Shown piece after piece: positions 1 to 27,733 of a DNA stretch of 64,000 nucleotides. Position 1 is the stretch's first letter, and each line of letters opens with the position of its first letter. The notes beneath the pieces were generated by a model. It was not told where the DNA came from and did no database searches. It was given only the letters and a program-made list of their open reading frames with translations. Source of the DNA: an uncultured Bacteroidaceae bacterium (GTDB lineage Bacteria; Bacteroidota; Bacteroidia; Bacteroidales; SM23-62); assembly GCA_964406005.1 (NCBI GenBank), contig CAYOPZ010000005.1, forward strand, positions 5,370-69,369, written 5' to 3'. Both the position numbers and the translations under genes were made by a program.

Positions 1-176
1 CATATTACCCGATAGAACAATACAGAAAAAAATGCAGGGAGCTGGGGGCGGATTATTTCTTCGATAAATCAAACGATTTTGAGAAAATGACAGGGACGGT
101 AAAAAAACTGGCAAAAAAAATTAAAAATAATCATAATCCATCCGGCTGGAACAACCGGAATAACAATTATGCATAA
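1..176 (+). CDS. 3' end of a response-regulator receiver (CheY-like) gene, cut by the window edge
   Basis: Frame 3 is open from the window edge to TAA at 174-176. The translated tail ...YRKKCRELGADYFFDKSNDFEKM... resembles the C-terminal end of REC domains. Its stop overlaps the next ATG (ATGCATAA at 169-176). Confidence 0.5.
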   Translation, partial: YYPIEQYRKKCRELGADYFFDKSNDFEKMTGTVKKLAKKIKNNHNPSGWNNRNNNYA

Positions 177-765
177 AGGTAATTTATCTGATTTACCCGA
201 TCATTTTCTGGTCTTTGCAATTGACCGGAATTTCTTCGCAATACCGGTAAAAATGGTTAAAAGGATTATTCCTTCGATAATAATAACCAGGGTGCCCGGT
301 TTTCAGGAACATATTCTCGGGGTGGTTAATGTTTTAGGCGAGGCCGTACCTGTTTTCAATATCAGGAAAATCTTCAAGCTTCCCGCAAAAGATACTGAGC
401 TGACCGATTTGTTTATTCTTTTGACCGTATCGGGACAAACCATATCGTTTGCGGCCGATTCCGTTCAGGGAATCATGAACCGGACAGACCGGAAAATGAT
501 TCCCGCCGGGGAAGTAGCTCCCGGACTGGAAAAGATCCTCGAAGGACTGATATTCCTGGATGACGGTATGATCCTGATCTATGACCCCGGGAAGCTGTTC
601 GTCTATGACAATATGATAAAGATAGATATCAAAAAGCTGGGGCAAACGATGAGGGGTTTGCAGGAATCCGGGAAAAAAAGAGCTGCCAGGGCAAAAAAAC
701 CGGCGGGCCGGAAGACCAGCAAGCCATTAACCGATAAACCAACAGGACCGGTCAAGAAGAATTAA
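169..765 (+). CDS. cheW: CheW-like coupling protein with a basic Lys/Pro-rich C-terminal tail
   Basis: 198-aa ORF with CheW-type segments (FLVFAIDRNFFAIPVKMVKRIIP, VPGFQEHILGVVNVLGEAVPVFNIRKIF). The last ~40 aa (KKRAARAKKPAGRKTSKPLTDKPTGPVKKN) are basic and low complexity. Confidence 0.85.
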   Translation: MHKGNLSDLPDHFLVFAIDRNFFAIPVKMVKRIIPSIIITRVPGFQEHILGVVNVLGEAVPVFNIRKIFKLPAKDTELTDLFILLTVSGQTISFAADSVQGIMNRTDRKMIPAGEVAPGLEKILEGLIFLDDGMILIYDPGKLFVYDNMIKIDIKKLGQTMRGLQESGKKRAARAKKPAGRKTSKPLTDKPTGPVKKN

Positions 766-780
766 ACCCGGGGAATAAGA

Positions 781-2328: not shown

Positions 2329-2344
2329 ATAAAATCAATATAGA

Positions 2345-2980: not shown

Positions 2981-2992
2981 AAATGCCAAACC

Positions 2993-4723
2993 ATGAAACC
3001 ATCATTTGCGCTTAAAATCGGAGTGTTTTTCGGAGTGATATTGATAATATTGCTCGTCATAGGTAGTATTTCGCTCACAAATATGACAAGGCTCCATGAA
3101 AATGCCGATCTCGTAATCCGTGCCGATGAAATAAAAACGAAGTTAGAGGAGATCACAAGTGCCATTAAAGACGCCGAGACGGCTGAACGCGGCTACATCA
3201 TAACCGGAGAGGAAGAATACCTGGAACCATACAATAATGTTCTTCCCGGGATCTCCAGTTCTGAAAATGATCTCGAGCAGTTGATATCCGATCCCCAACA
3301 GAAACAACGACTTCTCCGGTTCGAATCCCAGGTTACAGAGAAACTTGATTTTCTTGAGGAAGCGATCAACACACGAAGGGATGCCGGTTTTGATGCCGCA
3401 AGAGCCCTGATATTAACGGATATCGGGAAAAACATGATGCAAAATGTCCGCGATACAAAATTGGAAATGATAAATGCAGAGGATCAAATACTCCAGGAAC
3501 GCCAGCTCAGATCCGACCGGAGTGTCAGAACTGCCAGGCTGACCATTGTACTGCTGACAGCGATCAGTATCATAATAGTCGTTTTAATGGTCATTTACCT
3601 GGTTTACAATATCGCCCTGCCGGTCAGGGAAGTTTCAGGCATCGCGGAGAATATCTCCATGGGAGAATTCAACCGCGAAATCAGGAAAACCGGCAGGAAA
3701 GATGAAGTCGGAGTACTCATAAATGCATTTTCACGCATGATTTCCTATTTAAAGGAAATGACCAATACGGCCAACATGATTGCCGAACGTAACCTGGATA
3801 TTGAGATAAAGCCCCTTTCGGAGCGGGATATATTCGGAAATGCATTCAATTCAATGAAAGAAAACCTGAAGGCCCAGGTTCTTGAAATAACCGAAACGGT
3901 AAATGTCCTTACTTCGATGGTCGCGGAAATCATCACCACAACTTCCCAGTTAACGGCCAGTTCCACCGAGACGGTTTCGGCGATAACAGAAACAACCACG
4001 ACCGTGGAGGAAGTCAAACAAACGGCACAGGTTTCCAATGACAAGGCAAAGGCGATTTCGGAAAGCTCCAGAAAAACCCTGCAGGTGGCCAGAGATGGTG
4101 AAAAAGCGGTGAATGAAACCGGTTCAGGTATGAACATGATTAGGGAGAAGATGGAATTCATTGCAGAAAGTATTATGCAATTGAGTGAACAGAGCCAGAC
4201 CATCGGAGAGATCATGAATTCAATAAATGACCTGGCCGAACAGTCCAACCTGCTTGCGGTTAACGCTTCGATCGAAGCTGCCAAGGCAGGTGAGGAAGGA
4301 AAAGGATTTGCAGTGGTGGCAGAGGAAGTTAAAAACCTGGCCGACCAGTCGAAACAGGCAACCAGGCAGGTGCGGGAGATTCTGACCGAAATACAGAAGG
4401 CCACCGGTACAGCGGTTATGGCAACCGAGGAAGGGAGCAAGGTGGTCGAGTCGGGCACCACCCAGGCCGGTGATGCCGGAGCTTCAATCAAAGCGCTGAC
4501 TGAAGTTGTCAACGAAGCAGTGCAGGCTACCACACAGATCGCAGCATCCGTACAGCAACAATTCGTGGGTATCGACCAGGTTACGGAAGCCATCCGCAAC
4601 ATCAGTGTTGCAAGCAACCAGAACCTGGAGAGCACCAAACAGCTGGAAACAGCTTCGGAAAACCTGGAAGGAGTAGCCAGGAAACTTGATGAACTTGTAA
4701 AACAGTACCAACTCGAAGAATGA
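2993..4723 (+). CDS. Methyl-accepting chemotaxis protein, CHASE3-like sensor + HAMP + MCP signalling domain
   Basis: 576 aa with two TM segments flanking a CHASE3-like region (AETAERGYIITGEEEYLEPY). It has a HAMP domain (EVGVLINAFSRMISYL) and the conserved hairpin tip (DLAEQSNLLAVNASIEAAKAGEEGKGFAVVAEEVKNLA). Confidence 0.92.
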   Translation: MKPSFALKIGVFFGVILIILLVIGSISLTNMTRLHENADLVIRADEIKTKLEEITSAIKDAETAERGYIITGEEEYLEPYNNVLPGISSSENDLEQLISDPQQKQRLLRFESQVTEKLDFLEEAINTRRDAGFDAARALILTDIGKNMMQNVRDTKLEMINAEDQILQERQLRSDRSVRTARLTIVLLTAISIIIVVLMVIYLVYNIALPVREVSGIAENISMGEFNREIRKTGRKDEVGVLINAFSRMISYLKEMTNTANMIAERNLDIEIKPLSERDIFGNAFNSMKENLKAQVLEITETVNVLTSMVAEIITTTSQLTASSTETVSAITETTTTVEEVKQTAQVSNDKAKAISESSRKTLQVARDGEKAVNETGSGMNMIREKMEFIAESIMQLSEQSQTIGEIMNSINDLAEQSNLLAVNASIEAAKAGEEGKGFAVVAEEVKNLADQSKQATRQVREILTEIQKATGTAVMATEEGSKVVESGTTQAGDAGASIKALTEVVNEAVQATTQIAASVQQQFVGIDQVTEAIRNISVASNQNLESTKQLETASENLEGVARKLDELVKQYQLEE

Positions 4724-7050
4724 CCAAAAAAGAGGAAGAATTTAAAAAGCGGTTGCTGGAGACTTTCAGGATTGAAGCCGGTGACCACCTGAAAGCGATA
4801 TCATCCGGCCTGATAAAACTGGAAAAAACAGGCAATCAGGATGAGCGGAGAAAATCAACCGAGAATATCTACAGGGAGGCTCACAGTCTGAAAGGAGCAT
4901 CACGTTCTGTAAACATACGCAGTTTTGAATCCATCTGTAATACTTTGGAAAATGTTCTCGGAAGATGGAAGCGTGAAGAGATAACCCCGTCCCGGGATAT
5001 GTTCGATAAAATGCATACCCTGGTCGATTTTATGTCGGAAAAACTCGGTGATCCCCGGCCCGGGGAGATCGTCCTCGAAAATCATGTTTCAGAGATTCTT
5101 TCTCAATCGTATGAAACGGATTCCGGAACCGAAGATATTTCAGGGCCCGGTTCAGGCAAAGGACTTACTGAAAAGGAGAGTAGTGACCAGTCCGGTAAAA
5201 AAGTTAATCAGCCTTCTGAAAAGGAACAACCCCCTGCAGGTGAAGGAAGGATACTGGAAGGAACCGTAAGGATTTCCAGGATGAAACTCGATTCCCTGAT
5301 GATGCAGACCGAAGAGATGCTGTCTGTTAAACTTAAACTGTATCAGCGATTTACCGAACTTCAGGATCTCGGATCCGTTCTCAGTCAATTGAAAAAGGAG
5401 ATCATGGAAATGATCCGGGAAAATCCTAAGGTATTCCAAATCCAGGTGAATGAGACTAAGAACCCGGATCGTGAAAATAATAAAATCAATCCGGGACAAT
5501 CGGAAAAATATGATAAGAGTTCTGAACTCGTCGAATTAATGGAAGCCAAACTCTCGGTTCTTGTTAAATCAGCCGGAGAAGATCACAGGATGGCAGGAAG
5601 GATGATCGATAATATGCTGGAGGAAATGAGGAATATCTTAATGCTCCCCATTTCTTCAATCCTGGAATTGTTCCCGGGACTGGTCCGCAATCTCTCCAGG
5701 GAGCAGGGCAAGAATGTGGAACTGGAAATGCAGGGAGCTGAGAATGAAGTCGACAGACGGGTCCTTGAAGAGATAAAAGATCCGCTTATCCACCTGGTAC
5801 GGAATTGTATCGATCACGGAATTGAAAAACCCGAAGAAAGAATCAAGAATGGTAAACCTTCATCCGGAAAAATTACCATCAAGGTATCACAATTGCCGGG
5901 GAACAAGGTTGAAATTCTTGTATCCGACGACGGGGAAGGGATTGATCTGGCCGGTATTAAAAAGGCGGCAATCAAAAATGAATTGGTTTCAGAGAAGGAT
6001 GATTTAACGGACGATAAACTGGAAACTCTTGTTTATCATTCCGGGATTACAACCAGTCCCATCCTTACGGATCTTTCCGGCAGGGGACTCGGACTCGCCA
6101 TTGTCAAGGAGAAAGTCGAATCGCTCGGAGGAACCGTCTCCGTCAGGTCCCAACACCTTAAAGGAACAGCCTTTACCATGCAGATACCGCTTACACTTGC
6201 AACATACAGGGGCATCTTCATCGAGGTGGACGGTGCCGTGTTTGTCGTACCCGCTGCCAATGTCGAACGGATCCTGAGAATTAACAGGAGTGACATAAAA
6301 ATGGTCGAAAACAGGGAGACCGTTTCAATGAACGGCAATACCCTTTCCTATGTAAATCTCGGTGACATTCTTGAAACAGCGGGAAGTAACCGTGAAGAAC
6401 CGGAGGTAAAGGACAAAACACCTAACCGGGACGTTCAGAACATACTCATTATGGGAGCAGGAAACAACAGGATCGCTTTTGGTATTGACAGGATTATCAA
6501 TGAGCAGGAAATCCTTGTTAAACATCTTTCAAAACCGCTGGCCCGGGTCAGGAATACAGGTGGTGTGACCATCCTGGGCTCAGGAAGGGTCGTTCCGATC
6601 CTGAACATTTCAGACATTATGAAATCAGCAGTCACCGGGCCTTCTGTAAGTACCGGATCCGCTTCTGAAAAGAAAGCGGAAGAAAAGCAAAGATCCGCCC
6701 TGGTTGCAGAAGATTCCATCACATCCAGGATGCTCCTCAGGGATATCCTCGAATCGGCCGGATTCTTTGTCAAAACAGCCGTTGACGGTGCCGAGGCACT
6801 GTCGCTCCTGCGTGAAGGCGAATTCGATATCCTTGTGTCAGATATCGATATGCCCAGGATGAACGGCTTCGAGCTTACTTTAAAAGTGCGTGCCGATAAA
6901 AAGCTCGGTGAATTGCCGGTCGTCCTTGTAACTGCCCTGAAATCACGCGAAGACCGTGAACACGGAATGGAGGTCGGAGCAAATGCCTATATCGAAAAAG
7001 GCAGTTTTGATCCGCAGCAGCTCCTGGAAGTCATAAACAGGCTCGTGTAA
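4720..7050 (+). CDS. cheA: CheA-type histidine kinase fused to a C-terminal receiver (WspE-like CheA::REC)
   Basis: 776 aa. Domains: HPt (YREAHSLKGASRS), HATPase (IHLVRNCIDHGIE, SDDGEGID, GRGLGLAIV), CheW-like P5 (FIEVDGAVFVVPAANVERIL) and REC (LVAEDSITSR, ILVSDIDMPRMNG). The ATGA start overlaps the MCP stop. Confidence 0.92.
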   Translation: MTKKEEEFKKRLLETFRIEAGDHLKAISSGLIKLEKTGNQDERRKSTENIYREAHSLKGASRSVNIRSFESICNTLENVLGRWKREEITPSRDMFDKMHTLVDFMSEKLGDPRPGEIVLENHVSEILSQSYETDSGTEDISGPGSGKGLTEKESSDQSGKKVNQPSEKEQPPAGEGRILEGTVRISRMKLDSLMMQTEEMLSVKLKLYQRFTELQDLGSVLSQLKKEIMEMIRENPKVFQIQVNETKNPDRENNKINPGQSEKYDKSSELVELMEAKLSVLVKSAGEDHRMAGRMIDNMLEEMRNILMLPISSILELFPGLVRNLSREQGKNVELEMQGAENEVDRRVLEEIKDPLIHLVRNCIDHGIEKPEERIKNGKPSSGKITIKVSQLPGNKVEILVSDDGEGIDLAGIKKAAIKNELVSEKDDLTDDKLETLVYHSGITTSPILTDLSGRGLGLAIVKEKVESLGGTVSVRSQHLKGTAFTMQIPLTLATYRGIFIEVDGAVFVVPAANVERILRINRSDIKMVENRETVSMNGNTLSYVNLGDILETAGSNREEPEVKDKTPNRDVQNILIMGAGNNRIAFGIDRIINEQEILVKHLSKPLARVRNTGGVTILGSGRVVPILNISDIMKSAVTGPSVSTGSASEKKAEEKQRSALVAEDSITSRMLLRDILESAGFFVKTAVDGAEALSLLREGEFDILVSDIDMPRMNGFELTLKVRADKKLGELPVVLVTALKSREDREHGMEVGANAYIEKGSFDPQQLLEVINRLV

Positions 7051-7092
7051 AGGATATTTTGATACAACCCCGGAAAATCAATAAAAACGGCA

Positions 7093-8175
7093 ATGACCGA
7101 GTTTAAAAAAGTAAGAGTTCTCGTTGTCGACGATTCACCGTCGGTTCTCGACCTGTTGACCTACATTCTGAATTCCGACCCCGGAATAGAAGTGATCGGG
7201 ACAGCCCTGACCGGCAAAAGAGCGTTGAAATTTCTTGAGACAACAGCTCCCGACGTTATTACGATGGATATGGAAATGCCTGAGATGGACGGACTGAAAA
7301 CCACGCGCATCATTATGGAAACCAATCCTGTTCCGATTATCATCGTATCGGCTTCCTGGTCCCCGTCAGAAGTTACCGATACCCTCAGGGCCATGGAAGC
7401 AGGTGCCGTTGCCATTCTGGAAAAGCCGCGGGGTATCGGCCATCCGGAGCACAACAGGATGGCCATCGAACTTGTCAATACAGTCAAAAACCTGTCACAG
7501 GTAAAACTCGTCAGGCGATGGCCAAAAATAAGGCAGATCAGGGAAAAGGCCCTTCCTGTGCTTCCTGACTTAGAAAAAGACAGGGAAGAGATCAGGATTG
7601 TCGCTATAGGTTCTTCAACCGGTGGTCCTGTTGCCCTGCAGGCCATACTGTCGGAACTTCCCGAAAATCTTCCGGTCCCCGTACTGATCGTGCAGCATAT
7701 TGCAGCGGGTTTCCTTAATGGATTGAAGGAATGGCTTAACAGATCGACAGGGAAAAAGGTCACTGTCGCATCAGACAGGGAGAAATTATTACCCGGACAT
7801 TATTACCTGGCGCCAAATAATTTCCAGATGGGAATTCAAAATTCCGGAATGATAAAACTGTCTGATTCCGATCCGTTGACAGTTCACTGCCCCTCTGTTT
7901 CATTTCTTTTCCGGTCTGTTGCCGAAACATACGGTAAACATGCAATCGGGGTTTTATTAACGGGCATGGGCAAAGACGGAGCCGGTGAACTCAGGATGAT
8001 GAGAAACAAGGGAGCCGTGACCATTGCACAGGATGAAGCTACCTCGGTCATCTGGGGAATGCCCGGGGAAGCTGTCAGGCTGGGGGGAGCAAAATATATT
8101 TTACCGCCTGTGGCAATTGCCCGTATAATAGCAAAACGGCTGAAAGGAAGTAACAAAGGTCCTGAGCACAGATAA
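7093..8175 (+). CDS. cheB: CheB-type protein-glutamate methylesterase (REC + esterase)
   Basis: 360 aa. REC motifs (VLVVDDSPSV, VITMDMEMPEMDG) plus the methylesterase triad contexts GSSTGGP, VQHI and GMGKDGA. Confidence 0.92.
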   Translation: MTEFKKVRVLVVDDSPSVLDLLTYILNSDPGIEVIGTALTGKRALKFLETTAPDVITMDMEMPEMDGLKTTRIIMETNPVPIIIVSASWSPSEVTDTLRAMEAGAVAILEKPRGIGHPEHNRMAIELVNTVKNLSQVKLVRRWPKIRQIREKALPVLPDLEKDREEIRIVAIGSSTGGPVALQAILSELPENLPVPVLIVQHIAAGFLNGLKEWLNRSTGKKVTVASDREKLLPGHYYLAPNNFQMGIQNSGMIKLSDSDPLTVHCPSVSFLFRSVAETYGKHAIGVLLTGMGKDGAGELRMMRNKGAVTIAQDEATSVIWGMPGEAVRLGGAKYILPPVAIARIIAKRLKGSNKGPEHR

Positions 8176-8187
8176 AAACGATGGTGC

Positions 8188-11100
8188 ATGGGAAAGAACA
8201 ACAACACATCCATTGTCATTGCCGAAGACAGCCATACTCAGGCCGAACAGCTCAGGTTCCTCCTCGAGGAACAGGGGTACACCGTTTTTTGCGGTAAAGA
8301 CGGATCGGAGGCACTGGATATGATAAAAATTCATCATCCGACCCTGGTCATCAGTGATATTCTTATGCCGGAACTGGATGGATACCAGTTATGCAGGAAA
8401 ATTAAAAAGGATCCCGTGCTGAAAAAAATACCGGTCGTACTCCTGACCGTATTATCACATCCAAGGGACATTATAAAGGGATTGGAATGCGGCGCAGACA
8501 ACTTCATAACAAAACCCTATAAAAACGAACATCTTTTATCATTGCTGCACAGGATCATTTCGAATATCCAGCTGAGGCAGGAAACAAAAACGGAGCCCGG
8601 GCTTAAAGTAAATTTTAATAAAAAGACTTACCATATTGATGCAGGCCGTGTACAGATACTCGATACGCTTTTATCCAGTATTGAACATTCAACCGGTGAA
8701 AATGAGAAGTTAAGGCAGTCAAACAAGCATCTGGAAAAAACACGGGAAGAACTGAAACGATCAAATCAGAACCTGGAGAAAGAGGTTGAAAAGCGAACGA
8801 AAAAGATCAAGCGGCTGAATTCACTGCTTACTGCGATAAGGAAAATAGATCAATTGATCGTTAAAGAAAAAAATCCGGGAATCCTGCTTCAAACCGCATG
8901 TGAGCAATTGGTGAGCATCAGGGATTATTATTATGCAGTGTATTTATACCTGGATAAGGACGGGAAAATATTATTTACGGGATATTCCGGTGTGGAAGAT
9001 CATTCTGAAAAATTCTCGGATTACCTTGATAAAGGTATGTTGCCTGCCTGCTGTGAAAAGGCAATGAACCGGGCCGGCGAGCTCACCGAAGGTAAAATAC
9101 AAGATCTGGTGGTCACCGAAGATCATAAGCGGGAATGCGGCGATTGTCCGTTGATTCCTGAAGAAAAAGGACTAAAATCAATAACCATCCCCCTGAAACA
9201 CAATGACCGGTACCTGGGTCTTCTCGTGATACTTGTACCGTTCCGGATATCTTCGATCATGGAAGAGATTGATCTTCTGGAAGGAGCAGCCAACGACCTG
9301 GCTTTTGCGCTTGCCGACATCGAACTCCAGGCTGAAAATAAGAAGGTCAACCGTGAACTGGTCAAAATGGCCCACGACCTGAACAAACGCGTAAAAGAAC
9401 TGAATTGTATTCACGGGATTGAAGAAGCAATGACACTACCCGGCATATCAATCAATGAGATTTTTAATGAGACCATACACCTGATACGGCAGACCTGGCA
9501 ATTCCCGGAATTAACGGCATGCAGGATTGAATACAATGGTGAGACTTTTCAATCGGAGAATTACAGGGAAACAGAACGGTCTTTGAAAACCGACCTGATT
9601 GTCCATGGTAAGAAGAAAGGTCTTCTTGAGGTCTGCTATATTGAAGATATCAATGATCATCCGGGGGATCCGTTTGTCGAAGAGGAGATGCACCTGCATA
9701 GAAATATCGGAAGGCAGCTCGAAAAATTCATTCAGAGAAAAGATACCGAAGAGAGATTAAAGGAACAACATAAACTGTTGTACCAACTCATCAATTCGTC
9801 ACCCGACCTGGTTTCCCTAAAGGACCGGAACGGACGGTATATAATGAATAATACAGCATTCAACAGGATCACAGGACTGAATGACCGGGAAACGACAACC
9901 GGCGAAACGGATTTTGACCTGTTCCCGGAAGAATATGCGGGCCGTTATCTTGAAGAAGACAGAAGGGTACTGGAGAAAGGGAAACCGGACTTAAACCGTG
10001 AAGAGATGATCCCTGACAGGAAAGGAAATGAACGATGGTTCCTGACATCCAGGATACCACTGAAGGATGAATCCGGAAAGATCAGCGGAATAATCAACGT
10101 GAGCCGTGATATTACCGAACGTAAGAAAAATCTTGAGGAATTGAAGCAGGCAAGAGAAAGAGCGGTGAAGGCAGATCAACTGAAAACAGCTTTCCTGATG
10201 AACATGTCCCACGAGGTCAGAACACCGATGAATGCAATAATCGGATTCGCAGACCTGCTTTTAAGTCCATCCGTGTTAAAACAGGATAAGGATTCGTTCC
10301 TGGAGATGATCAAGGAAAACAGCATGCGATTGCTCCGGCTTTTAAATGATATCCTGGATATTTCAAGGATCGAAACCGGGTCGGTTGAAATAATACCGAA
10401 GGCGTTCTCACTACGGAAGCTGGTTATGGACCTTCATAAGGATTTTAATGATCAGAAGATCAGGATGGGAAAAGAAAACGTGAAAATCAGCATTTCGGAA
10501 AAATGCAGTCATCATGATTATCGCATTATAACAGATCCTGAAAGGTTAAAACAAATTATCTCCAATCTGGTGGAAAATGCATTGAAGTTTACCGAATCCG
10601 GATTTATAGAAATGGGCTATGAAATGGTTCAATCGAAATCACCCGGTGAAAAACAATCGGATGCATTAAAACAAAAATTCCTGTGTTTCAGCATTAAGGA
10701 TACAGGGATCGGTATTGACAAGGACAGCCTTGATTTCATTTTTGACCGTTTCAGCAAGGTGGAGAGTAAAATGAAAATATATGACGGTACCGGCCTGGGG
10801 CTGGCGATTTCAAAGGACCTGGTGAAACTCCTTGGTGGTGAAATATGGGTGGAATCCGAACCCGGGAAAGGTTCTGAATTCTTTTTTACAATTCCATTCA
10901 AGGAAGCACGGGGTGAAAAAGAAATCATAACCAGATCAGGAACAGGCATGAGAAAGATCGACTGGAAAAGCAAACTGATCCTGGTTGCCGAGGATGAGGA
11001 AAGCAATTTTGCCCTTCTGAAATTCAACCTGCGCAGGACAGGTGCACAATTGCTCTGGGCCAGGAATGGAAATGAGGCTGTTGACGTCTGCCGTTCAAAT

Positions 11101-11334
11101 AAGGCAATAGACCTGGTTCTGATGGATATTAAAATGCCCGGATTGGATGGATTGCAGGCAGCCAGACTGATCAGGAAAAACAGGAAGGACCTTCCCGTCA
11201 TTGCAGTATCTGCCTTCTCAGCAGAAGAAGATATAAAATCATCAAGGGAGGCAGGCTGTGATGAATTTGTATCAAAACCGATCAATATGGAGGAACTTTA
11301 TAAGAAGATGAATTATTGTCTGGAAAGAAGTTGA
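8188..11334 (+). CDS. Hybrid sensor kinase: REC - conserved linker - coiled coil - Cys-bearing GAF-like - second sensor module - PAS - HisKA - HATPase - REC
   Basis: 1048 aa. N-terminal REC (IVIAEDSHTQAE, LVISDILMPELDG), H-box FLMNMSHEVRTPMNAIIGF, N/G boxes (NLVENALKFT, KDTGIGI, GTGLGLAIS) and C-terminal REC (ILVAEDEESN, LVLMDIKMPGLDG). Starts 12 bp after the cheB stop. Confidence 0.9.
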   Translation: MGKNNNTSIVIAEDSHTQAEQLRFLLEEQGYTVFCGKDGSEALDMIKIHHPTLVISDILMPELDGYQLCRKIKKDPVLKKIPVVLLTVLSHPRDIIKGLECGADNFITKPYKNEHLLSLLHRIISNIQLRQETKTEPGLKVNFNKKTYHIDAGRVQILDTLLSSIEHSTGENEKLRQSNKHLEKTREELKRSNQNLEKEVEKRTKKIKRLNSLLTAIRKIDQLIVKEKNPGILLQTACEQLVSIRDYYYAVYLYLDKDGKILFTGYSGVEDHSEKFSDYLDKGMLPACCEKAMNRAGELTEGKIQDLVVTEDHKRECGDCPLIPEEKGLKSITIPLKHNDRYLGLLVILVPFRISSIMEEIDLLEGAANDLAFALADIELQAENKKVNRELVKMAHDLNKRVKELNCIHGIEEAMTLPGISINEIFNETIHLIRQTWQFPELTACRIEYNGETFQSENYRETERSLKTDLIVHGKKKGLLEVCYIEDINDHPGDPFVEEEMHLHRNIGRQLEKFIQRKDTEERLKEQHKLLYQLINSSPDLVSLKDRNGRYIMNNTAFNRITGLNDRETTTGETDFDLFPEEYAGRYLEEDRRVLEKGKPDLNREEMIPDRKGNERWFLTSRIPLKDESGKISGIINVSRDITERKKNLEELKQARERAVKADQLKTAFLMNMSHEVRTPMNAIIGFADLLLSPSVLKQDKDSFLEMIKENSMRLLRLLNDILDISRIETGSVEIIPKAFSLRKLVMDLHKDFNDQKIRMGKENVKISISEKCSHHDYRIITDPERLKQIISNLVENALKFTESGFIEMGYEMVQSKSPGEKQSDALKQKFLCFSIKDTGIGIDKDSLDFIFDRFSKVESKMKIYDGTGLGLAISKDLVKLLGGEIWVESEPGKGSEFFFTIPFKEARGEKEIITRSGTGMRKIDWKSKLILVAEDEESNFALLKFNLRRTGAQLLWARNGNEAVDVCRSNKAIDLVLMDIKMPGLDGLQAARLIRKNRKDLPVIAVSAFSAEEDIKSSREAGCDEFVSKPINMEELYKKMNYCLERS

Positions 11335-11348
11335 CAGATTTTCACAGG

Positions 11349-13526
11349 ATGCAAAGGAACAAAGGAAATAAACTGATCGTGATTGCGGAAGACAGTCTTA
11401 CGCAGGCAGAAAAAATCAGGTATACTCTTGAGAACAAAGGGTTCAGGGTGGCTTGCGGAAAAAATGGCAGGGATGCCTTAAGGATTATTGAAGAAAAAGT
11501 TCCCGACCTGGTTATCTCGGATATAATCATGCCTGAAATGGATGGCTTTGAATTATGCAGGAGCATCAAAACAAAAAGCCGTCTGCAAGGAATTCCGGTT
11601 ATCCTTCTGACATCACTGGCACATACGGAAGACGTGCTGAAAGGTCTGGAGAGCGGTGCCGATAATTATATCATCAAGCCTTTCAGTGATGAACAACTTG
11701 TTACGCGCATAGAGACCATTCTTTCAGATGATGAAAATGCAGGAAAGGAGAAAAGGATACAGGAGCAAATCGACATTCTGTTCGAAGGGAAAAAGTACCT
11801 CCTGAATTCAACCAAAATCCAGATCCTCAACATGCTGCTTACGACCTACGAGGGAGCCGTACAAAAAACCAGGAAACTGGAGGAAACCCAGTCTGTACTG
11901 AATGAACTGCGAAACTCACTGGAAAGCAAAATCAGTGAAAAGACCAGGGATCTGCATCGGAAAATTCAGGAAAGGCAATCCATAGAATCTGCCATAAGGG
12001 AATCCGAGAAAAAGTATCGCAACCTTGTGGAGAATGCCATTACCGGAGTATTCAGCCTGACCCTGGAGGGGCAGATTGTGTTTGTCAACGAGGCAATGTT
12101 AAACCTCCTGGGTAAGGATCCGGGAACAAAGACGGAAAATCATTCCATACGATCATTCTTCAAACAAACTGCTGAATTTGAAAAATTCCTGGAGCTGATC
12201 AGGAAGCAGGGCCGGATTGTCGATTTTGAATCGGAGCTTGTGACAATAAAGGGTGAATCAAAAAGTGTGATCATCAATGCACGCCTGAAAGAAGACGGTA
12301 TTTCAGGCATTCTGCTGGACATTACGGAACGGAAAAAAATAATCGAACAGGAACAGAAATATCAGGCAGAATTAAAGACTGCAAAAGAGATGGCTGAGGA
12401 ATCGGATCGCCTTAAAACAGCATTTTTATCCAATATGTCCCACGAAATCAGGACTCCGCTCAATGCAATATCGGGATTTTCATGCCTGTTGTCCGATCCT
12501 CATCTGAGGAGAGAAAACAAAGAAGACTATATTGAACGCATTACCGATGGTTGCGATACCCTGCTAAACCTTGTAAACAACATCCTTGATCTGGCTAAAC
12601 TGGAAGCAGGAATAATAAAGCTTAACAAAAGAAAATGCAGGCTGAATAAACTGCTCGAGACGATTTATTCACTCCATTTAAGGTCAAGGGAGAAAATTGA
12701 AAGAAGCTCCCTTTCCTTCAAACTGTCGAAAGCAAATTCCGATGAAGACTTTACAATACTGGCAGATACCGACAGAATATTGCAGGTATTGTCAAATCTG
12801 CTTGATAATGCATTCAAATTTACCGAAAACGGATCGATTGATTTCGGATATGAAATTAAAGACGACCGGTTAATGTTTTTTGTCCGGGATACCGGACCGG
12901 GCATAAATGCCCAGCAGAAGAAAATAATTTTCGAACGTTTCAGAAAAGCAGAGGAAACAGAGACAAAACTGTACGGGGGAGCAGGACTGGGCCTGGCAAT
13001 ATGCAAAAAACTTGTTGAATTGATGGAAGGCGAAATAAGGGTGGAATCCGAACCCGGCCGGGGAACCTCATTCTCTTTCACAATACCCTTTATACCTGCA
13101 GCGGTTGAAAAAGAAACCGGAAAAAAGGAAGAAGCACCTGCTTCCAGACGATCCCTGAAAGGCAGGAAAGTACTTGTTGCTGAAGACAACCAGTTGAATT
13201 ATAATTTAATTGAAGCATTCCTGGCGGGGACCGACCTGGATGTTGTCTGGGTTAAGAACGGAAAGGAAGCCCTGGATTATTGCAAATCACCCGCTGATGC
13301 GGACATGATACTGATGGACCTGCGTATGCCGGTGATGGATGGATTTCAGGCGACAGAGCAAATAAGAAGCTTTAATGAGGACATCCCGGTTGTAGCCGTA
13401 ACTGCATATACCATCAGGGAAGAACAGGAAAAAGCGGAAAGCCTGGGATTTACGGATTACCTTACAAAACCGGTCAACCGGGAGATATTGCTGCAAACAA
13501 TACACAAATATATTTACAGTGGATAA
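11349..13526 (+). CDS. Hybrid sensor kinase: REC - conserved linker - PAS - HisKA - HATPase - REC (paralog 2)
   Basis: The ORF track starts at 11316. I prefer ATG 11349 (MQRNKGNKLIVIAEDS) because it matches the N-termini of the two paralogs. H-box FLSNMSHEIRTPLNAISGF, G boxes RDTGPGI and GAGLGLAIC, C-terminal REC (VLVAEDNQLN, MILMDLRMPVMDG). Confidence 0.9.
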   Translation: MQRNKGNKLIVIAEDSLTQAEKIRYTLENKGFRVACGKNGRDALRIIEEKVPDLVISDIIMPEMDGFELCRSIKTKSRLQGIPVILLTSLAHTEDVLKGLESGADNYIIKPFSDEQLVTRIETILSDDENAGKEKRIQEQIDILFEGKKYLLNSTKIQILNMLLTTYEGAVQKTRKLEETQSVLNELRNSLESKISEKTRDLHRKIQERQSIESAIRESEKKYRNLVENAITGVFSLTLEGQIVFVNEAMLNLLGKDPGTKTENHSIRSFFKQTAEFEKFLELIRKQGRIVDFESELVTIKGESKSVIINARLKEDGISGILLDITERKKIIEQEQKYQAELKTAKEMAEESDRLKTAFLSNMSHEIRTPLNAISGFSCLLSDPHLRRENKEDYIERITDGCDTLLNLVNNILDLAKLEAGIIKLNKRKCRLNKLLETIYSLHLRSREKIERSSLSFKLSKANSDEDFTILADTDRILQVLSNLLDNAFKFTENGSIDFGYEIKDDRLMFFVRDTGPGINAQQKKIIFERFRKAEETETKLYGGAGLGLAICKKLVELMEGEIRVESEPGRGTSFSFTIPFIPAAVEKETGKKEEAPASRRSLKGRKVLVAEDNQLNYNLIEAFLAGTDLDVVWVKNGKEALDYCKSPADADMILMDLRMPVMDGFQATEQIRSFNEDIPVVAVTAYTIREEQEKAESLGFTDYLTKPVNREILLQTIHKYIYSG

Positions 13527-14477
13527 ATGAAGAAACAGATCAGGAAAGAAAGCTCAGGCAACGGAAATTTCCGGAAGCTGTTGGACGAAAAACAAACGGA
13601 GATCAGGAAATTGACCGAAGAAATCAATCATCAGCAGGAAGCCATCGAATCACAGAAAGAGGTGATTGAAACACAACGTGATGTGGCCATTAAACAAAGG
13701 GATGAAATTATATTTCAGAAAAAGGAGATCACCTCCAGTATCAGATATGCGGAACGTATTCAGAAGGCATTGCTGCCGACAGATGAAGTATTTGCAGGGT
13801 CTTTTAAGGATCATTTCATTATGTACAGGCCAAGGGATATTGTCAGCGGGGATTTTTACTGGATAACAAATAAAGGCGGCAGGATCATTCTGGCCGCTGC
13901 AGATTGTACGGGACACGGAGTCCCGGGTGGCTTTATGAGTATCATGGGCATATCATTTTTAAATGAGATCGTTGAAAACCTTGGAATTATCCAACCCGGG
14001 GAAGTCCTGAATGAAATAAGAGACAAGGTGATCCACACATTCAGCCGGGCGGGGAAGAAAGCAGAAGCAATGGATGGTATGGATATCGCTGTTATCTCAT
14101 ATGAACCCCGGGATCAGGTCCTGCAGTATGCAGGTGCATTAAACCCGGTGTTTGTAATCAGGGACGGAGCCATTCATGAACTGACCGCAGACAGGATGCC
14201 TGTCGGATATTATTCCGGTACGGTCATACCGTTTGCCAATATTGAAATGGCGATACAGCCTGATGACTCGGTCTATTTGTTTTCAGACGGATATGTAGAC
14301 CAGTTCGGCTGGAGGACCGATACAAAATATAAAATGAAGAATTTTAGACGTCTGTTGCTGGATATTCAACAGGTACCAATGAGGGCGCAGAAGGTTCTGC
14401 TGGAAAATGAGCTCGATAACTGGAAGGGAGAAATGGAACAGCTGGATGACATCATGGTTATCGGGTTACAGATCTGA
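13527..14477 (+). CDS. PP2C/SpoIIE-family serine phosphatase with N-terminal coiled coil
   Basis: 316 aa. The ATG directly abuts the upstream TAA (13524-13526). A heptad-like N-terminus (LTEEINHQQEAIESQKEVIETQRDVAIKQRDEIIFQKKE) precedes RsbU/SpoIIE-type motifs (YAERIQKALLP, SGDFYW, ADCTGHGVPGGFMS, LFSDGYVDQ, DDIMVIGL). Confidence 0.88.
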   Translation: MKKQIRKESSGNGNFRKLLDEKQTEIRKLTEEINHQQEAIESQKEVIETQRDVAIKQRDEIIFQKKEITSSIRYAERIQKALLPTDEVFAGSFKDHFIMYRPRDIVSGDFYWITNKGGRIILAAADCTGHGVPGGFMSIMGISFLNEIVENLGIIQPGEVLNEIRDKVIHTFSRAGKKAEAMDGMDIAVISYEPRDQVLQYAGALNPVFVIRDGAIHELTADRMPVGYYSGTVIPFANIEMAIQPDDSVYLFSDGYVDQFGWRTDTKYKMKNFRRLLLDIQQVPMRAQKVLLENELDNWKGEMEQLDDIMVIGLQI

Positions 14478-14501
14478 ACTGCACCGGCCTTTTATAAAAG
14501 A

Positions 14502-16691
14502 ATGAAGGAAAAAACAGATAAGCGGATTGTAATTGCAGAAGACAGCCTTACCCAGGCAATGAAACTGAAAGGTATCCTTGAAAATGCCGGGTTTGCCGTT
14601 TACCACGGAGCCGATGGGAAACAGGCCTTGTCACTTGTTTATGAAATCACACCGGTGATCGTTATTTCAGATATAGTAATGCCGGAAATGGATGGATTCG
14701 AACTCTGCAGGAAGATCAAGGAAGATGAAAGCCTCTGCAGGATTCCTGTTATTCTTCTCACATCCCTGTCCGAACTGTCAGATGTCATCAAAGGGCTGGA
14801 ATGCGGTACGGATTCATATATTATGAAACCTTTTTCGGAACAATACCTTTTATCAAGGGTGAACCATGTACTGGAAAACAGCAGCCTGAAACCGGTAAAG
14901 AGTATCCCCAAAGGATTGAACATAAAATTCGGCGGACACGAATTCCAGATCCGTTCCGATCCGTTACAGATTTTAAACCTGTTGATCTCAACATATGATG
15001 CTGCTATTCAAAAGAATATTGAACTCGCTGAAAGAGAGAAAGAACTGATCTTGTTTAACCAGACCCTGCAGCAAAAGGTCGAGGAACGAAAACGCGAACT
15101 GACCGTTCAGCTGGAAGAGAAAATAAAAGCTGAGGAAATCCTTAAAAAATCGGAAGAGAAATACAGGGAACTGGTCGATACCGCACTGATCGGAATTTAT
15201 ATCTCAACCGTTGAAGGAAAATTATTATTTGCCAATGAAGCTTTCAGGGATATGCTTGATTACAGTTCATTTGATGAGTTATATTCAATGAATACAAGTG
15301 ATCTGTATAAAAATCCGGACAGCAGAAATCTGTTTATAGGCAGACTTCTTAAGGAAGGCAGGGTTCCCGACTTCGAGACAGAATTGATAACGAAGAATGG
15401 TTCAACAAAACATGTATTGCTGAATGCAACCCTGGAAGGGGATATCCTTTCAGGAATGATCCTGGATATCAGCGACAGGAAAGCAGCCGAACAGAGAATG
15501 AAGAACTATCAAAAGGAATTGCTGCAGGCAAAACAAAAGGCGGAACAATCAGAAAAACTTAAAACAGCATTTCTTGCAAATATGTCAAATGAGATCCTCA
15601 CTCCCATAAACTCGCTGGTAGGGTTTACAGACCTCCTGACCAGGCCTGGTCTCAGTGCTGAAAGTCAGGCAAAATATTCCGGGCAAATCAACGAAAGCGG
15701 GAATCAATTGCTGAACCTGATAGACAACATTATTGATATTGCAAAATTCGAATCCGGTGAGGTTACCATTAAACTGACAGATTGCAGGATCAATAATTTA
15801 TTGCTGGATCTCTATGCCTATTTTGAGAAGCGATTGCATGAAACCGGAAAGGACCAGGTGAGCCTTTTTCTCAAGAGGGCCAACAAGGATAATGATTTTA
15901 CCATATTAACCGAACCGTACAGGTTGAAGAAGGTACTGTCAAACCTGTTAAACAATGCAATCAAATTTACAGAGACCGGAGCGGTCGAATTTGGATATAA
16001 CATTGTACATGAAGAAGAAAATAATGACGGTTCCCTTATTCAGTTCTTCATCAAGGATACCGGCAGCGGCATTTCACAGGATAAACTTACCATGATTTTC
16101 GACCGTTTCCGCCGGAATGATGAAACCTATACCAAACTCTCCGAAGGAGCAGGATTAGGTCTCCCCGTTTCAAAAGCATACGTAGAACTTCTCGGCGGGA
16201 AGATATGGACGAAATCAGAGATTGATTCGGGCACGGAATTCTATTTCAATCTTCCCTATACACCGGTAAAGCCTGATGAAGGATTCGAAGCAGATGTTGA
16301 AGTGCCCGTCAGTACGCAAAACTGGGAAAACAAAAAAATCCTGATAGCAGAAGATATTGAAAGCAACTGGCGGTACCTGGAGGCCATACTGCAGAAGACA
16401 AAAGCCAGTCTGATCAGGGTGGAAAACGGCAGGCAGGCCATTGAAGCATTCAAGCAGCATCGTGATATCGACATAATCCTTATGGACCTCAGGATGCCGG
16501 TCATGTCGGGATATGATGCGACCATTGAAATAAAGAAAATGAACAGGGATATTCCCATAATTGTTCAGACAGCCTTTGCCCGGGACGAGGACAAGGAAAA
16601 AATCCTGGAGACCGGATGTGACAGCTACATTGTCAAACCGGTAAATAATGAGGTGCTCCTTGATCTCCTCGGCCGCTTTATAAAAAAATAG
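14502..16691 (+). CDS. Hybrid kinase-like protein REC - linker - PAS - degenerate HisKA (His->Asn) - HATPase - REC (paralog 3)
   Basis: 729 aa with the same architecture as 11349..13526. The H-box reads FLANMSNEILTPINSLVGF, with an AAT (Asn) codon at 15588-15590 where the paralogs have CAC (His). N/G boxes are intact (NLLNNAIKFT, KDTGSGI, GAGLGLPVS). C-terminal REC is present (ILIAEDIESN, IILMDLRMPVMSG). Confidence 0.9.
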   Translation: MKEKTDKRIVIAEDSLTQAMKLKGILENAGFAVYHGADGKQALSLVYEITPVIVISDIVMPEMDGFELCRKIKEDESLCRIPVILLTSLSELSDVIKGLECGTDSYIMKPFSEQYLLSRVNHVLENSSLKPVKSIPKGLNIKFGGHEFQIRSDPLQILNLLISTYDAAIQKNIELAEREKELILFNQTLQQKVEERKRELTVQLEEKIKAEEILKKSEEKYRELVDTALIGIYISTVEGKLLFANEAFRDMLDYSSFDELYSMNTSDLYKNPDSRNLFIGRLLKEGRVPDFETELITKNGSTKHVLLNATLEGDILSGMILDISDRKAAEQRMKNYQKELLQAKQKAEQSEKLKTAFLANMSNEILTPINSLVGFTDLLTRPGLSAESQAKYSGQINESGNQLLNLIDNIIDIAKFESGEVTIKLTDCRINNLLLDLYAYFEKRLHETGKDQVSLFLKRANKDNDFTILTEPYRLKKVLSNLLNNAIKFTETGAVEFGYNIVHEEENNDGSLIQFFIKDTGSGISQDKLTMIFDRFRRNDETYTKLSEGAGLGLPVSKAYVELLGGKIWTKSEIDSGTEFYFNLPYTPVKPDEGFEADVEVPVSTQNWENKKILIAEDIESNWRYLEAILQKTKASLIRVENGRQAIEAFKQHRDIDIILMDLRMPVMSGYDATIEIKKMNRDIPIIVQTAFARDEDKEKILETGCDSYIVKPVNNEVLLDLLGRFIKK

Positions 16692-16873
16692 ACAGGAGTT
16701 CAATACAAGCCGTTGCCGGTGGAAATCTGTTAAAAACGGTTCTACCTTCAGGATATTTTCCGGATTGATCTTAATCGCCCTTCCATTTAAACCATCCCGG
16801 GAAGGGGGAAATTACCAGTAAATTTATTAACTTCAGGTTTCAGTGGCTTTTGCCGGGTTAACTTTACATTGAC

Positions 16874-17500
16874 ATGTCGACAATTCTCATTATAGATGAT
16901 CACCCTGTTGTAAGAAGAGGATTGCGGGAAATACTTGAAGAATTGTCCGTTGATATCCGGATAATTGAAGCCGGTACGGCAATTGACGGGTTACGAATAA
17001 TCAGGGAATCGGATATTGATATTGTTTTACTGGATATTAATCTTCCCGGCAGAAGCGGTCTTGATATGCTGAAAGATATAAGAAAGATCAAGGCAGAAAC
17101 CAAGGTTCTGATAATCAGTATGTATCCGGTGGACCAATACGCAGTCCGTGCACTTAAATCCGGTGCAAAGGGATATGTTACCAAGGAAAGTGCACCCGAT
17201 GAATTGCTTGCTGCGGTCGACAGGATACTGAAGGGAGGAAGATACATTACACAATCCATAGCTGAGCATATAGTCGATAATCTTGAGAGTAAAGGCCCCC
17301 TGCACCGTTCTCTTTCAGACAGGGAGTTTGAGGTAATGATCCACCTGGCAAAAGGAAAAAGCATCAGGGTAATTGCCGAAACACTGGCATTGAGTGAAAA
17401 AACCGTCAGTACCTACCGCAAGAGAATTCTTGAGAAAATGCAAATGCATTCAAATGTTGAACTCGCCAGGTATGCCCTGCAGTATAAACTCATTGAATAG
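16874..17500 (+). CDS. NarL/FixJ(LuxR)-family response regulator
   Basis: 208 aa. REC (ILIIDDHPVVRRGL, IVLLDINLPGRSG) plus a LuxR-type HTH (LSDREFEVMIHLAKGKSIRVIAETLALSEKTVSTYRKRILEKM). Confidence 0.92.
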   Translation: MSTILIIDDHPVVRRGLREILEELSVDIRIIEAGTAIDGLRIIRESDIDIVLLDINLPGRSGLDMLKDIRKIKAETKVLIISMYPVDQYAVRALKSGAKGYVTKESAPDELLAAVDRILKGGRYITQSIAEHIVDNLESKGPLHRSLSDREFEVMIHLAKGKSIRVIAETLALSEKTVSTYRKRILEKMQMHSNVELARYALQYKLIE

Positions 17501-23679: not shown

Positions 23680-23681
23680 AG

Positions 23682-26795: not shown

Positions 26796-26879
26796 GATTC
26801 AGGACATAATATCCGTTTCGTAAAAACGGCACTGCTGCTTCCGTTGAAAAGGCTTGAAGAGAAATCCGTGGAAAAGGCT

Positions 26880-26887
26880 TAAATTTG
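26880..26887 (+). promoter_or_regulatory. Bacteroidota-type -7 box TAAATTTG upstream of deoR-family gene
   Basis: TAnnTTTG match 31 nt upstream of ATG 26918. A cTTG lies ~23 nt further upstream. Confidence 0.35.
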
Positions 26888-26917
26888 ATCCGGGTACCGA
26901 ATAAAATCCGGATCACC

Positions 26918-27682: not shown

Positions 27683-27733
27683 CGGATGACATCCTGACCG
27701 GAAATACCAACTTCTGCAATACAGGAATGGTAT

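What the first reader, a model, noticed from the sequence alone, without database searches (positions are those of the whole stretch)
8188..17500. Candidate undescribed output stage: chemosensory core hard-wired to three REC-PAS-HK-REC hybrid kinases, a PP2C phosphatase and a LuxR regulator
Seen: three paralogous proteins follow 12 bp after cheB, at 8188-11334, 11349-13526 and 14502-16691. Each begins with a CheY-like receiver (IVIAEDS(H/L)TQA, (L/I)VISDI(L/I/V)MPE(L/M)DG) and ends with a second receiver. A PP2C gene starts on the base after the second kinase's stop. A LuxR-type regulator follows after 182 bp. All three share a conserved ~60-aa segment just after the first REC (KVNFNKKTYHIDAGRVQILDTLLSSIE / IDILFEGKKYLLNSTKIQILNMLLTTYE / LNIKFGGHEFQIRSDPLQILNLLISTYD) that I cannot assign to a named domain. 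Established: the Wsp output is REC-GGDEF and flagellar outputs are single-domain CheY. Hybrid kinases with C-terminal receivers normally need an HPt partner. Inference: CheA may phosphorylate the N-terminal receivers and so gate a bank of kinases. That would make a chemosensory array the input to a multi-kinase phosphorelay ending at the LuxR regulator. The only HPt I can see in the locus is the P1 domain of CheA itself, which raises the possibility of a closed CheA-HK-HPt loop. I am not aware of a characterised system with this wiring.
Basis: partly seen in the sequence, partly recalled or inferred. Interest (0 to 1): 0.8.

Follow-up and report, generated by a model that had tools for sequence, protein, structure and literature searches.

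The report
Chemosensory operon driving three receiver-kinases
A Bacteroidales bacterium carries a non-motility chemotaxis-like operon of an already described type whose outputs are three receiver-gated sensor kinases, one of them a conserved dead kinase, plus a protein phosphatase and a DNA-binding regulator.

Summary
The claim that the wiring is undescribed does not hold.

This is an ACF-class (Wsp-like) chemosensory operon: CheW, CheR-TPR, CheW, MCP, CheA-REC, CheB. A 2012 genomic survey found that about 40% of the response regulators in such clusters carry a histidine-kinase module. In Rhodospirillum centenum Che3, CheA3 was shown to phosphorylate a receiver of the hybrid kinase CheS3.

New here:
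- The unassigned post-REC segment is a conserved beta-hairpin plus helix (QILxLLLSTYE) with no Pfam model. It defines about 1,700 protein clusters. In 62 of 73 loci from many phyla, including archaea, it sits directly after cheB.
- The third "kinase" has Asn in place of the phospho-accepting His. This holds in all 12 orthologues in the homologue list and in the three orthologous loci read directly.
- The order kinase, PP2C, dead kinase is conserved in Bacteroidales relatives.
- A stand-alone receiver gene is cut by the window start.
- The LuxR regulator recurs in clusters of several phyla.
- No HPt other than CheA P1 is in the locus; a spirochaete relative has one fused.

Verdict: a new variant of a known kind, of moderate interest.

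The parts
3..167 (+). C-terminal 55 aa of a stand-alone receiver (single-domain response regulator), cut by the window start. It ends 1 nt before cheW.
   Evidence: Frame +3 translation. 50% identical over 42 aa to the 148-aa REC at L089:155-601 (E 1e-14). 42% identical to the L004 127-aa REC.
169..765 (+). CheW 1
   Evidence: Pfam CheW, E 4e-22.
781..2328 (+). CheR methyltransferase fused to TPR repeats (CheR-TPR, a marker of ACF clusters).
   Evidence: Pfam CheR E 1e-52 plus TPR families. PMC3447774.
2345..2980 (+). CheW 2
   Evidence: Pfam CheW, E 4e-28.
2993..4723 (+). Chemoreceptor with CHASE3-HAMP-MCP signalling domains.
   Evidence: Pfam.
4720..7050 (+). CheA with a C-terminal receiver (Hpt/P1, HATPase_c, CheW-like P5, REC). 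It holds the only HPt in the locus.
   Evidence: Pfam. No Hpt in any other locus gene or in the other window ORFs tested.
7093..8175 (+). CheB (REC plus methylesterase).
   Evidence: Pfam.
8188..11334 (+). HK1: REC, hairpin/helix module (aa 135-175, nt 8590-8712), GAF, PAS, HisKA (His675), HATPase_c, REC (Asp980).
11349..13526 (+). HK2: REC (Asp58), hairpin/helix module (aa 137-177, nt 11757-11879), PAS, HisKA (His365), HATPase_c, REC (Asp657).
13527..14477 (+). PP2C/SpoIIE-family Ser/Thr phosphatase with an N-terminal coiled coil and no receiver. Its catalytic motifs are intact (DCTGHG, DGMD, SDGY, DD).
   Evidence: Pfam SpoIIE E 2e-18. NCBIfam SiaA C-terminal half E 1e-52, below the family cut-off. 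The position between HK2 and HK3 is conserved in L001/L089, L004 and L090.
14502..16691 (+). HK3: same architecture as HK2, but the phospho-acceptor His is Asn363 (AAT, nt 15588-15590) and the Arg at H+3 is Leu. The N, G1 and G2 ATP-binding boxes and both receiver Asp residues (57, 662) are kept. It is a conserved pseudokinase.
16874..17500 (+). REC-GerE (NarL/LuxR-type, GacA/UvrY-like) response regulator, 182 nt after HK3. It is followed by a convergent gene.
   Evidence: Pfam. NCBIfam UvrY/GacA family E 7e-47, below cut-off. Relatives in other clusters.

Best explanation
This is an ACF-class (Wsp-like in gene content, non-motility) chemosensory operon of an uncultured Bacteroidales bacterium.

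The CHASE3 chemoreceptor controls CheA-REC through two CheW proteins, with CheR-TPR and CheB providing adaptation. CheA~P (P1 histidine) most likely phosphorylates the N-terminal receivers of three paralogous output proteins. Each receiver is joined by a conserved beta-hairpin and a long signalling helix to PAS-DHp-CA. Receiver phosphorylation would therefore switch the kinase core on or off, as CheA3 does to CheS3 in R. centenum.

HK1 and HK2 are competent kinases. Their phosphoryl groups go to their own C-terminal receivers and, directly or through an HPt not seen here, to the GacA-like LuxR regulator and/or the stand-alone receiver. HK3 cannot autophosphorylate (His to Asn). It most likely acts as a CheA-gated modulator: a receiver-binding or phosphatase-type partner, or a heterodimer partner of HK2. 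The PP2C adds a Ser/Thr-phosphate branch whose substrate is unknown.

Shown: gene content, domains, catalytic residues, conservation of the arrangement.
Inferred: every phosphotransfer step.
For: - All domains were confirmed.
- A profile of the REC-hairpin-helix module (A2) returned loci from Bacteroidota, Verrucomicrobiota, Acidobacteriota, Desulfobacterota, Nitrospirota, Planctomycetota, Ignavibacteriota, Pseudomonas, Gallionella and archaea.
- In 62 of 73 loci with enough upstream DNA, a CheB methylesterase ends a median of about 40 nt before the module-bearing gene. 61 of these 62 also have CheA.
- Of 71 such proteins, 48 carry HATPase_c, 45 HisKA, 8 GGDEF and 4 Hpt. The module is therefore a shared input adaptor on varied outputs, mostly kinases.
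- Close relatives keep the order cheA-REC, cheB, HK1, HK2, PP2C, HK3.
- Literature: in CheR-TPR/ACF clusters about 40% of response regulators have a kinase module (PMC3447774). CheA3 phosphorylates CheS3 REC1 and CheS3 phosphorylates CheY3 (PMC3868531).
- The AF2 model of HK2 aa 1-215 (pLDDT 87.8) shows a REC, a hairpin at 139-154 and a helix at 156-214.
- Gaps of 0-24 nt, with no intergenic terminator-like site on the + strand between cheB and HK3, fit one transcript.
- LuxR relatives (41-66% identity) occur in or beside such clusters in Bacteroidales, Syntrophales, Ignavibacteriota, Rokubacteria, Opitutaceae and a spirochaete.
Against: - No phosphotransfer has been measured.
- CheA has six candidate receivers here: its own, CheB's, three N-terminal ones and the stand-alone one.
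- The kinases are BarA/TorS/ArcB-like hybrids and the regulator is GacA-like. Such pairs normally need an HPt, and none is in the locus.
- LuxR is absent from most of the 80 loci and from L001/L089.
- The sigma-70 promoter scan is uninformative for Bacteroidota.
- R. centenum CheS3 is not homologous in architecture (REC-REC*-PAS-HWE kinase), so the precedent is one of logic, not of family.
Confidence: 0.72

Rival explanations
1. Closed loop. The C-terminal receivers of the hybrid kinases pass phosphate back to the P1/HPt domain of CheA, which then phosphorylates the LuxR regulator. CheA would be both the input to the kinase bank and its relay.
For: CheA P1 is the only Hpt domain found in the locus and in the other window ORFs tested. 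The kinases and regulator resemble BarA/TorS and GacA types that use HPt relays. Reverse transfer from a receiver to CheA P1 is established in Sinorhizobium (my own knowledge, not checked here).
Against: Only 64 kb of the genome is visible, so an orphan HPt elsewhere is the simpler alternative. Related outputs that relay carry their own fused Hpt (4 of 71; L091 REC-PAS-HK-REC-Hpt). This points to a dedicated HPt rather than to CheA P1. Many hybrid-kinase receivers act only as sinks or autoinhibitors (PMC3868531 discussion).
Confidence: 0.08
2. The N-terminal receivers are not outputs but phosphate sinks or feedback elements for CheA. The kinases would be driven mainly by their own PAS/GAF sensors. 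The true CheA output would be the stand-alone receiver or the LuxR regulator.
For: A stand-alone REC gene is conserved at the head of the cluster. Each kinase has its own PAS domain, and HK1 also a GAF domain. Receivers acting as sinks are documented for CheA3-REC.
Against: The receiver is joined through a strictly conserved hairpin/helix to many different output domains. That is the signature of a regulatory input, not a sink. About 20 family members are the module alone, which fits either reading.
Confidence: 0.12
3. PP2C and the His-less HK3 form a Ser/Thr kinase/phosphatase (partner-switch-like) branch. HK3 would use its intact ATP-binding domain to phosphorylate a Ser/Thr on a partner such as a STAS-like protein, and PP2C would reverse it, under CheA control.
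For: The order HK2, PP2C, HK3(Asn) is conserved in the window, L001/L089, L004 and L090. HK3 orthologues keep the N, G1 and G2 boxes. In L004 and L090 a DUF7793/SpoIIAA-like gene follows HK3. The PP2C resembles the SiaA phosphatase half.
Against: There is no STAS-like gene in the window (tblastn). No HATPase_c_2-type kinase is present. In the spirochaete cluster, the kinase after REC-SpoIIE keeps its His. No HisKA-type kinase lacking its His is known to me to act as a Ser/Thr kinase.
Confidence: 0.08

Closest known systems
Rhodospirillum centenum Che3 cascade (CheA3-REC to CheS3 to CheY3), PMC3868531
   Same: An ACF-type cluster with two CheW, CheR, CheB, an MCP and CheA-REC. A second kinase with an N-terminal receiver is encoded in the cluster. 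CheA phosphorylates that receiver and so controls the kinase. A single-domain receiver is also in the cluster.
   Different: CheS3 is REC-REC(degenerate)-PAS-HWE kinase with no C-terminal receiver. There is one such kinase, not three. There is no pseudokinase, no PP2C and no LuxR regulator. It has not been shown that CheS3 carries the hairpin/QILxLLLSTYE module.
ACF-class chemosensory pathways with CheR-TPR and multidomain response regulators (Wuichet & Zhulin 2010, as cited in PMC3447774; Munoz-Martinez et al. 2012, PMC3447774)
   Same: CheR-TPR, CheA-REC, and a response regulator whose REC is fused to HisKA+HATPase, PAS, GAF or an extra REC. PP2C and HTH regulators occur in the same clusters.
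   Different: Those surveys list architectures only. They do not describe the hairpin module, the tandem triplication, the His-less paralogue or a Bacteroidales example.
Pseudomonas Wsp system (WspE to WspR)
   Same: Gene content: MCP, 2 CheW, CheR-TPR, CheA-REC, CheB, and an output with an N-terminal REC and a helical stalk.
   Different: The Wsp output is REC-GGDEF and the gene order begins with the MCP. Here the output is kinases and the MCP is the fourth gene. 8 of 71 relatives of the module do carry GGDEF.
BarA/GacS-UvrY/GacA, TorS and ArcB tripartite phosphorelays
   Same: HisKA-HATPase-REC hybrid kinases and a NarL-family regulator. These are the best NCBIfam similarities.
   Different: There is no HPt domain in the kinases or the locus. 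Input is through an N-terminal receiver rather than a periplasmic sensor. All scores are far below the family cut-offs.
Histidine pseudokinases: DivL (PMC4211667) and PsmA (PMC12963549)
   Same: A kinase fold kept under selection without the phospho-accepting His. It may have been repurposed as a sensor or binder of a phosphorylated receiver.
   Different: DivL has Tyr at that position, HK3 has Asn. HK3 keeps both receivers and its ATP-binding motifs. No homology beyond the shared kinase fold was tested.

Membership tests
ACF-class chemosensory system | Core of MCP, CheA, CheW plus CheR and CheB in one cluster | tested here: met
   Pfam hits for all, 169-8175.
ACF-class chemosensory system | CheR fused to TPR repeats | tested here: met
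   CheR plus TPR_1/2/8/19 in 781-2328. Criterion from PMC3447774.
ACF-class chemosensory system | CheA with a C-terminal receiver and no detected P2 domain | tested here: met
   Hpt, HATPase_c, CheW and Response_reg only. Trend described in PMC10542144.
ACF-class chemosensory system | Multidomain response regulator(s) in the cluster | tested here: met
   Three REC-...-HK-REC proteins and REC-GerE.
ACF-class chemosensory system | Assignment by the class-specific CheA/CheW/CheB profile models of MiST | not testable with these tools
   Those models are not in any library offered.
Wsp system | REC-GGDEF output (WspR) | tested here: not met
   No GGDEF in any locus gene.
R. centenum Che3-type cascade | Output kinase of REC-REC*-PAS-HWE_HK architecture | tested here: not met
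   HisKA (PF00512), a single N-terminal REC and an extra C-terminal REC. CheS3 architecture.
R. centenum Che3-type cascade | CheA phosphorylates the N-terminal receiver of the second kinase | not testable with these tools
   Needs in vitro phosphotransfer. Only conserved adjacency supports it.
Hybrid-kinase/HPt/NarL-type phosphorelay (BarA-UvrY type) | HisKA-HATPase-REC kinase and NarL-family regulator | tested here: met
Hybrid-kinase/HPt/NarL-type phosphorelay (BarA-UvrY type) | A dedicated HPt domain or protein | tested here: not met
   The only Hpt is CheA P1. The rest of the genome is not available.
Histidine pseudokinase | Phospho-acceptor His replaced, and the replacement conserved in orthologues | tested here: met
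   Asn363 in HK3. 12 of 12 orthologues read SN(E/D)IL(T/A)P, as do the copies in loci L001, L004 and L090.
Partner-switching module (PP2C / anti-sigma-type kinase / STAS) | STAS-domain substrate and HATPase_c_2 kinase next to the PP2C | tested here: not met
   No STAS-like gene in the window. A DUF7793/SpoIIAA-like gene occurs only in relatives L004 and L090.

The most novel reading that the evidence does not exclude
The conserved trio HK2, PP2C, His-less HK3 is a new kind of chemosensory output. In this reading, a receiver-gated histidine-kinase fold that has lost its His works with a PP2C as a Ser/Thr phospho-switch, or as a dedicated CheA-gated phosphatase or decoy for the LuxR regulator. 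Alternatively, CheA P1 doubles as the relay HPt for the hybrid kinases.
Probability: 0.15. Interest if true: 0.7.

Novelty: new variant of a known kind. Interest (0 to 1): 0.42.

Why it matters
ACF chemosensory systems are common, but almost none have a known output mechanism. This locus and its relatives show three things.
- One unnamed 40-residue hairpin/helix element couples the CheA-targeted receiver to kinases, cyclases and other outputs in many phyla. That gives a concrete handle for annotation (a missing domain model) and for mutagenesis.
- The Bacteroidales version adds a conserved dead kinase and a PP2C. This suggests push-pull or cross-chemistry control of a GacA-like regulator.
- It occurs in an order for which a full-text search found no paper mentioning Bacteroidales together with the che gene names.

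It does not overturn current understanding.

Tried and rejected
- Foldseek of the AF2 model against the PDB found only receiver domains. Nothing matched the hairpin plus helix. 3gt7 is the closest receiver (43% identity), and its 132 ordered residues stop before the hairpin.
- Pfam at E up to 10 on the segment alone gave only coiled-coil noise.
- P0039, an apparent REC-PAS-HisKA-SpoIIE fusion, turned out to be an in-frame junction. It joins HK2 residues 1-512 (mid ATP-binding domain) to the middle of the PAS-like N-terminus of the PP2C. I read it as a probable deletion or assembly artefact, not a Rosetta-stone fusion.
- Looking for DNA upstream of the window failed. The CheW product is not on record, and the CheR and HK3 look-ups returned only short Logan contigs.
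- The sigma-70 promoter scan gave 40 hits against 30.6 expected. It is not applicable to Bacteroidota promoters, so it was not used.
- The idea that a His-less kinase always follows the PP2C was tested in the spirochaete cluster and failed. That kinase has AHEINNP.
- PMC3401578 (Wuichet & Zhulin 2010) is not held, so it is cited only through PMC3447774.


Full report
**1. Observation**

The + strand of window 1-17500 carries a tight gene row:

| Gene | Coordinates | Content |
|---|---|---|
| CheW | 169-765 | |
| CheR-TPR | 781-2328 | |
| CheW | 2345-2980 | |
| MCP | 2993-4723 | CHASE3-HAMP-MCP signalling |
| CheA | 4720-7050 | Hpt-HATPase_c-CheW-REC |
| CheB | 7093-8175 | |
| HK1 | 8188-11334 | REC-GAF-PAS-HisKA-HATPase_c-REC |
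| HK2 | 11349-13526 | REC-PAS-HisKA-HATPase_c-REC |
| PP2C | 13527-14477 | SpoIIE/PP2C |
| HK3 | 14502-16691 | REC-PAS-HisKA-HATPase_c-REC |
| LuxR | 16874-17500 | REC-GerE |

A convergent GNAT-like gene follows at 17541-18335.

- The gaps from cheB onward are 12, 14, 0, 24 and 182 nt. The PP2C ATG abuts the HK2 TAA stop.
- No terminator-like site on the + strand falls in an intergenic gap.
- The three kinase-like proteins are 36-42% identical.

**2. Corrections**

- HK3 has Asn363 (AAT, 15588-15590) where HK1 and HK2 have the phospho-accepting His (CAC). The Arg at H+3 is Leu: SNEILTP against SHEVRTP and SHEIRTP.
- All 12 HK3-type orthologues among the homologues read SN(E/D)IL(T/A)P. Most keep the N, G1 and G2 ATP-binding motifs and the C-terminal receiver Asp.
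- The HK3-position genes in L001, L004 and L090 show the same substitution.
- HK3 is therefore a conserved pseudokinase, not a sequencing error.
- Bases 3-167 encode the last 55 residues of a stand-alone receiver. It is orthologous to a 148-aa REC at the head of a related cluster (50% identity). The locus therefore begins upstream of the window.

**3. The unassigned post-REC segment**

- It has no Pfam or NCBIfam model.
- An AlphaFold2 model of HK2 residues 1-215, built from 24 homologues, has pLDDT 87.8. It gives a receiver, then a beta-hairpin (139-145 and 148-154), then a long helix from 156 that starts with the motif QIL(N/D)xLL(S/T)(S/T)Y(E/D).
- Foldseek finds only receivers. The nearest solved receiver, 3gt7 from Syntrophus, stops before the hairpin.
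- A 41-residue profile of the hairpin plus motif finds 1,734 cluster representatives (614 at E <= 1e-10) among 1.84 billion. Nearly all hits lie at residues ~140-180, that is, right after an N-terminal receiver.

**4. Context in other genomes**

- Close Bacteroidales relatives (44-59% identity) keep cheA-REC, cheB, HK1, HK2, PP2C, HK3 in that order.
- A genome-collection scan with the REC-hairpin-helix profile returned 80 loci. They come from Bacteroidota, Verrucomicrobiota, Acidobacteriota, Desulfobacterota, Nitrospirota, Planctomycetota, Ignavibacteriota, Spirochaetota, Pseudomonas, Gallionella, Nitrosospira, and archaeal Methanospirillum and ANME-2.
- In 62 of the 73 loci with enough upstream DNA, a CheB methylesterase ends a median of about 40 nt before the module-bearing gene. 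61 of these 62 loci also have CheA. The usual order is cheW-cheR-cheW-mcp-cheA-cheB.
- Several of the 11 exceptions are second copies in tandem, or cases where my start-codon call was wrong.
- Of 71 such proteins, 48 have HATPase_c, 45 HisKA, 8 GGDEF (6 with EAL), 4 Hpt, and one each SpoIIE, HD and GerE. About 20 are the module alone.
- Of the first two downstream ORFs, 29 of 95 carry a receiver.
- Most loci have one module-bearing gene and a few have two. Only the Bacteroidales group has three.

**5. What it is**

The module is the dedicated output receiver of a widespread ACF-type chemosensory system, and a histidine kinase is its commonest output. This is a known kind.

- Munoz-Martinez et al. 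2012 reported that most CheR-TPR genes lie in clusters with multidomain response regulators. About 40% of those regulators contain HisKA+HATPase, alongside PAS, GAF, extra REC, PP2C and HTH. They proposed that receiver phosphorylation modulates the autokinase (PMC3447774).
- He et al. 2013 showed for R. centenum Che3 that CheA3 phosphorylates REC1 of the hybrid kinase CheS3. They also showed that only CheS3 phosphorylates CheY3 (PMC3868531).
The mechanistic inference itself is well supported.

**6. Output end**

- By NCBIfam the kinases are most similar to TorS, BarA, ArcB and LuxQ. The regulator is most similar to UvrY/GacA, and the PP2C to the phosphatase half of SiaA. All scores are below the family cut-offs.
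- No Hpt other than CheA P1 was found in the locus or in ten further window ORFs.
- LuxR regulators 41-66% identical to this one lie inside or beside related clusters:
  - Bacteroidales: L004, L026.
  - Syntrophales: L014.
  - Ignavibacteriota: L022.
  - Rokubacteria: L024.
  - Opitutaceae: L050.
  - A Rectinemataceae spirochaete: L091.
- In these clusters the order is often LuxR, small REC, cheW.
- In L091 the first output is REC-PAS-HK-REC-Hpt. The family therefore uses a dedicated HPt where it relays.
- For this genome, three options remain open: an orphan HPt elsewhere, direct DHp-to-LuxR transfer with the C-terminal receivers as sinks, or use of CheA P1. I rank them in that order.

**7. 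HK3 and PP2C**

- HK3 keeps the Thr at H+4 that is specifically needed for HisKA phosphatase activity (PMC3510030). It lacks the His, whose chemistry also contributes to that reaction (PMC7005713).
- A phosphatase, binder or heterodimer role is therefore plausible but unproven. DivL and PsmA are precedents for repurposed histidine pseudokinases.
- The PP2C has intact catalytic motifs but no receiver. Relatives carry an extra PAS-like N-terminus on it.
- In L004 and L090 a DUF7793/SpoIIAA-like gene follows HK3. None is present in the window.
- A partner-switch-like reading is possible but weak. The spirochaete kinase after REC-SpoIIE keeps its His.

**8. Verdict**

- The system is a new variant (three outputs, a pseudokinase, a receiver-less PP2C, a Bacteroidales host) of a described class.
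- The useful new items are the unnamed hairpin/helix input module and the conserved His-less paralogue.

Noticed in passing
window 3-167 (+): C-terminal end of a stand-alone receiver gene, cut by the window start. The order LuxR, small REC, cheW recurs in L014, L022 and L091; in L026 the output kinase lies between LuxR and the small REC.
   Followed up: partly
window 23068-23679 and 23580-25400 (+): A MEDS-domain protein followed by a HisKA-HATPase_c-REC hybrid kinase without an N-terminal receiver. This is a separate sensor pair, 6 kb downstream of the locus.
   Followed up: partly
window ~26000-38000: GC content rises from 0.38-0.45 to 0.50-0.59. A DeoR regulator at 26885-27682 was confirmed. 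By eye, and not tested, the following genes look like sugar/glycerol catabolism and split transketolase genes. This may be an acquired island.
   Followed up: no
P0025 (homologue of HK2, 46% identity): Its H-box reads SQEIRTT. This is a second, independent loss of the phospho-accepting His in an HK2-like protein.
   Followed up: no
P0121-P0125, P0132: Some proteins carry the hairpin/motif element twice, with the best match at residues ~320-380 in most of them. This suggests tandem REC-hairpin units.
   Followed up: no
L091 (Rectinemataceae, GCA_049513895.1) 1-21355: A spirochaete cluster with the same parts list: LuxR, small REC, CheW, CheR-TPR, 2 MCP, CheW, CheA-REC, CheB, REC-PAS-HK-REC-Hpt, REC-HD, two REC-PAS-HK, REC-SpoIIE, PAS-HK.
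   Followed up: partly
L004 16342-16722; L090 12942-13322: A DUF7793/SpoIIAA-like 126-aa gene lies directly after the HK3 orthologue, followed by a ~1000-aa multi-PAS protein and, in L004, a REC-HisKA-HATPase gene (the corresponding L090 ORF is cut at the locus end). All three are absent from the window.
   Followed up: partly
window 13527-14477 compared with L001 12166-13464 and L004 12291-13646: The window's PP2C (316 aa) lacks the ~120-aa PAS-like N-terminal region present in orthologues (427-451 aa).
   Followed up: no
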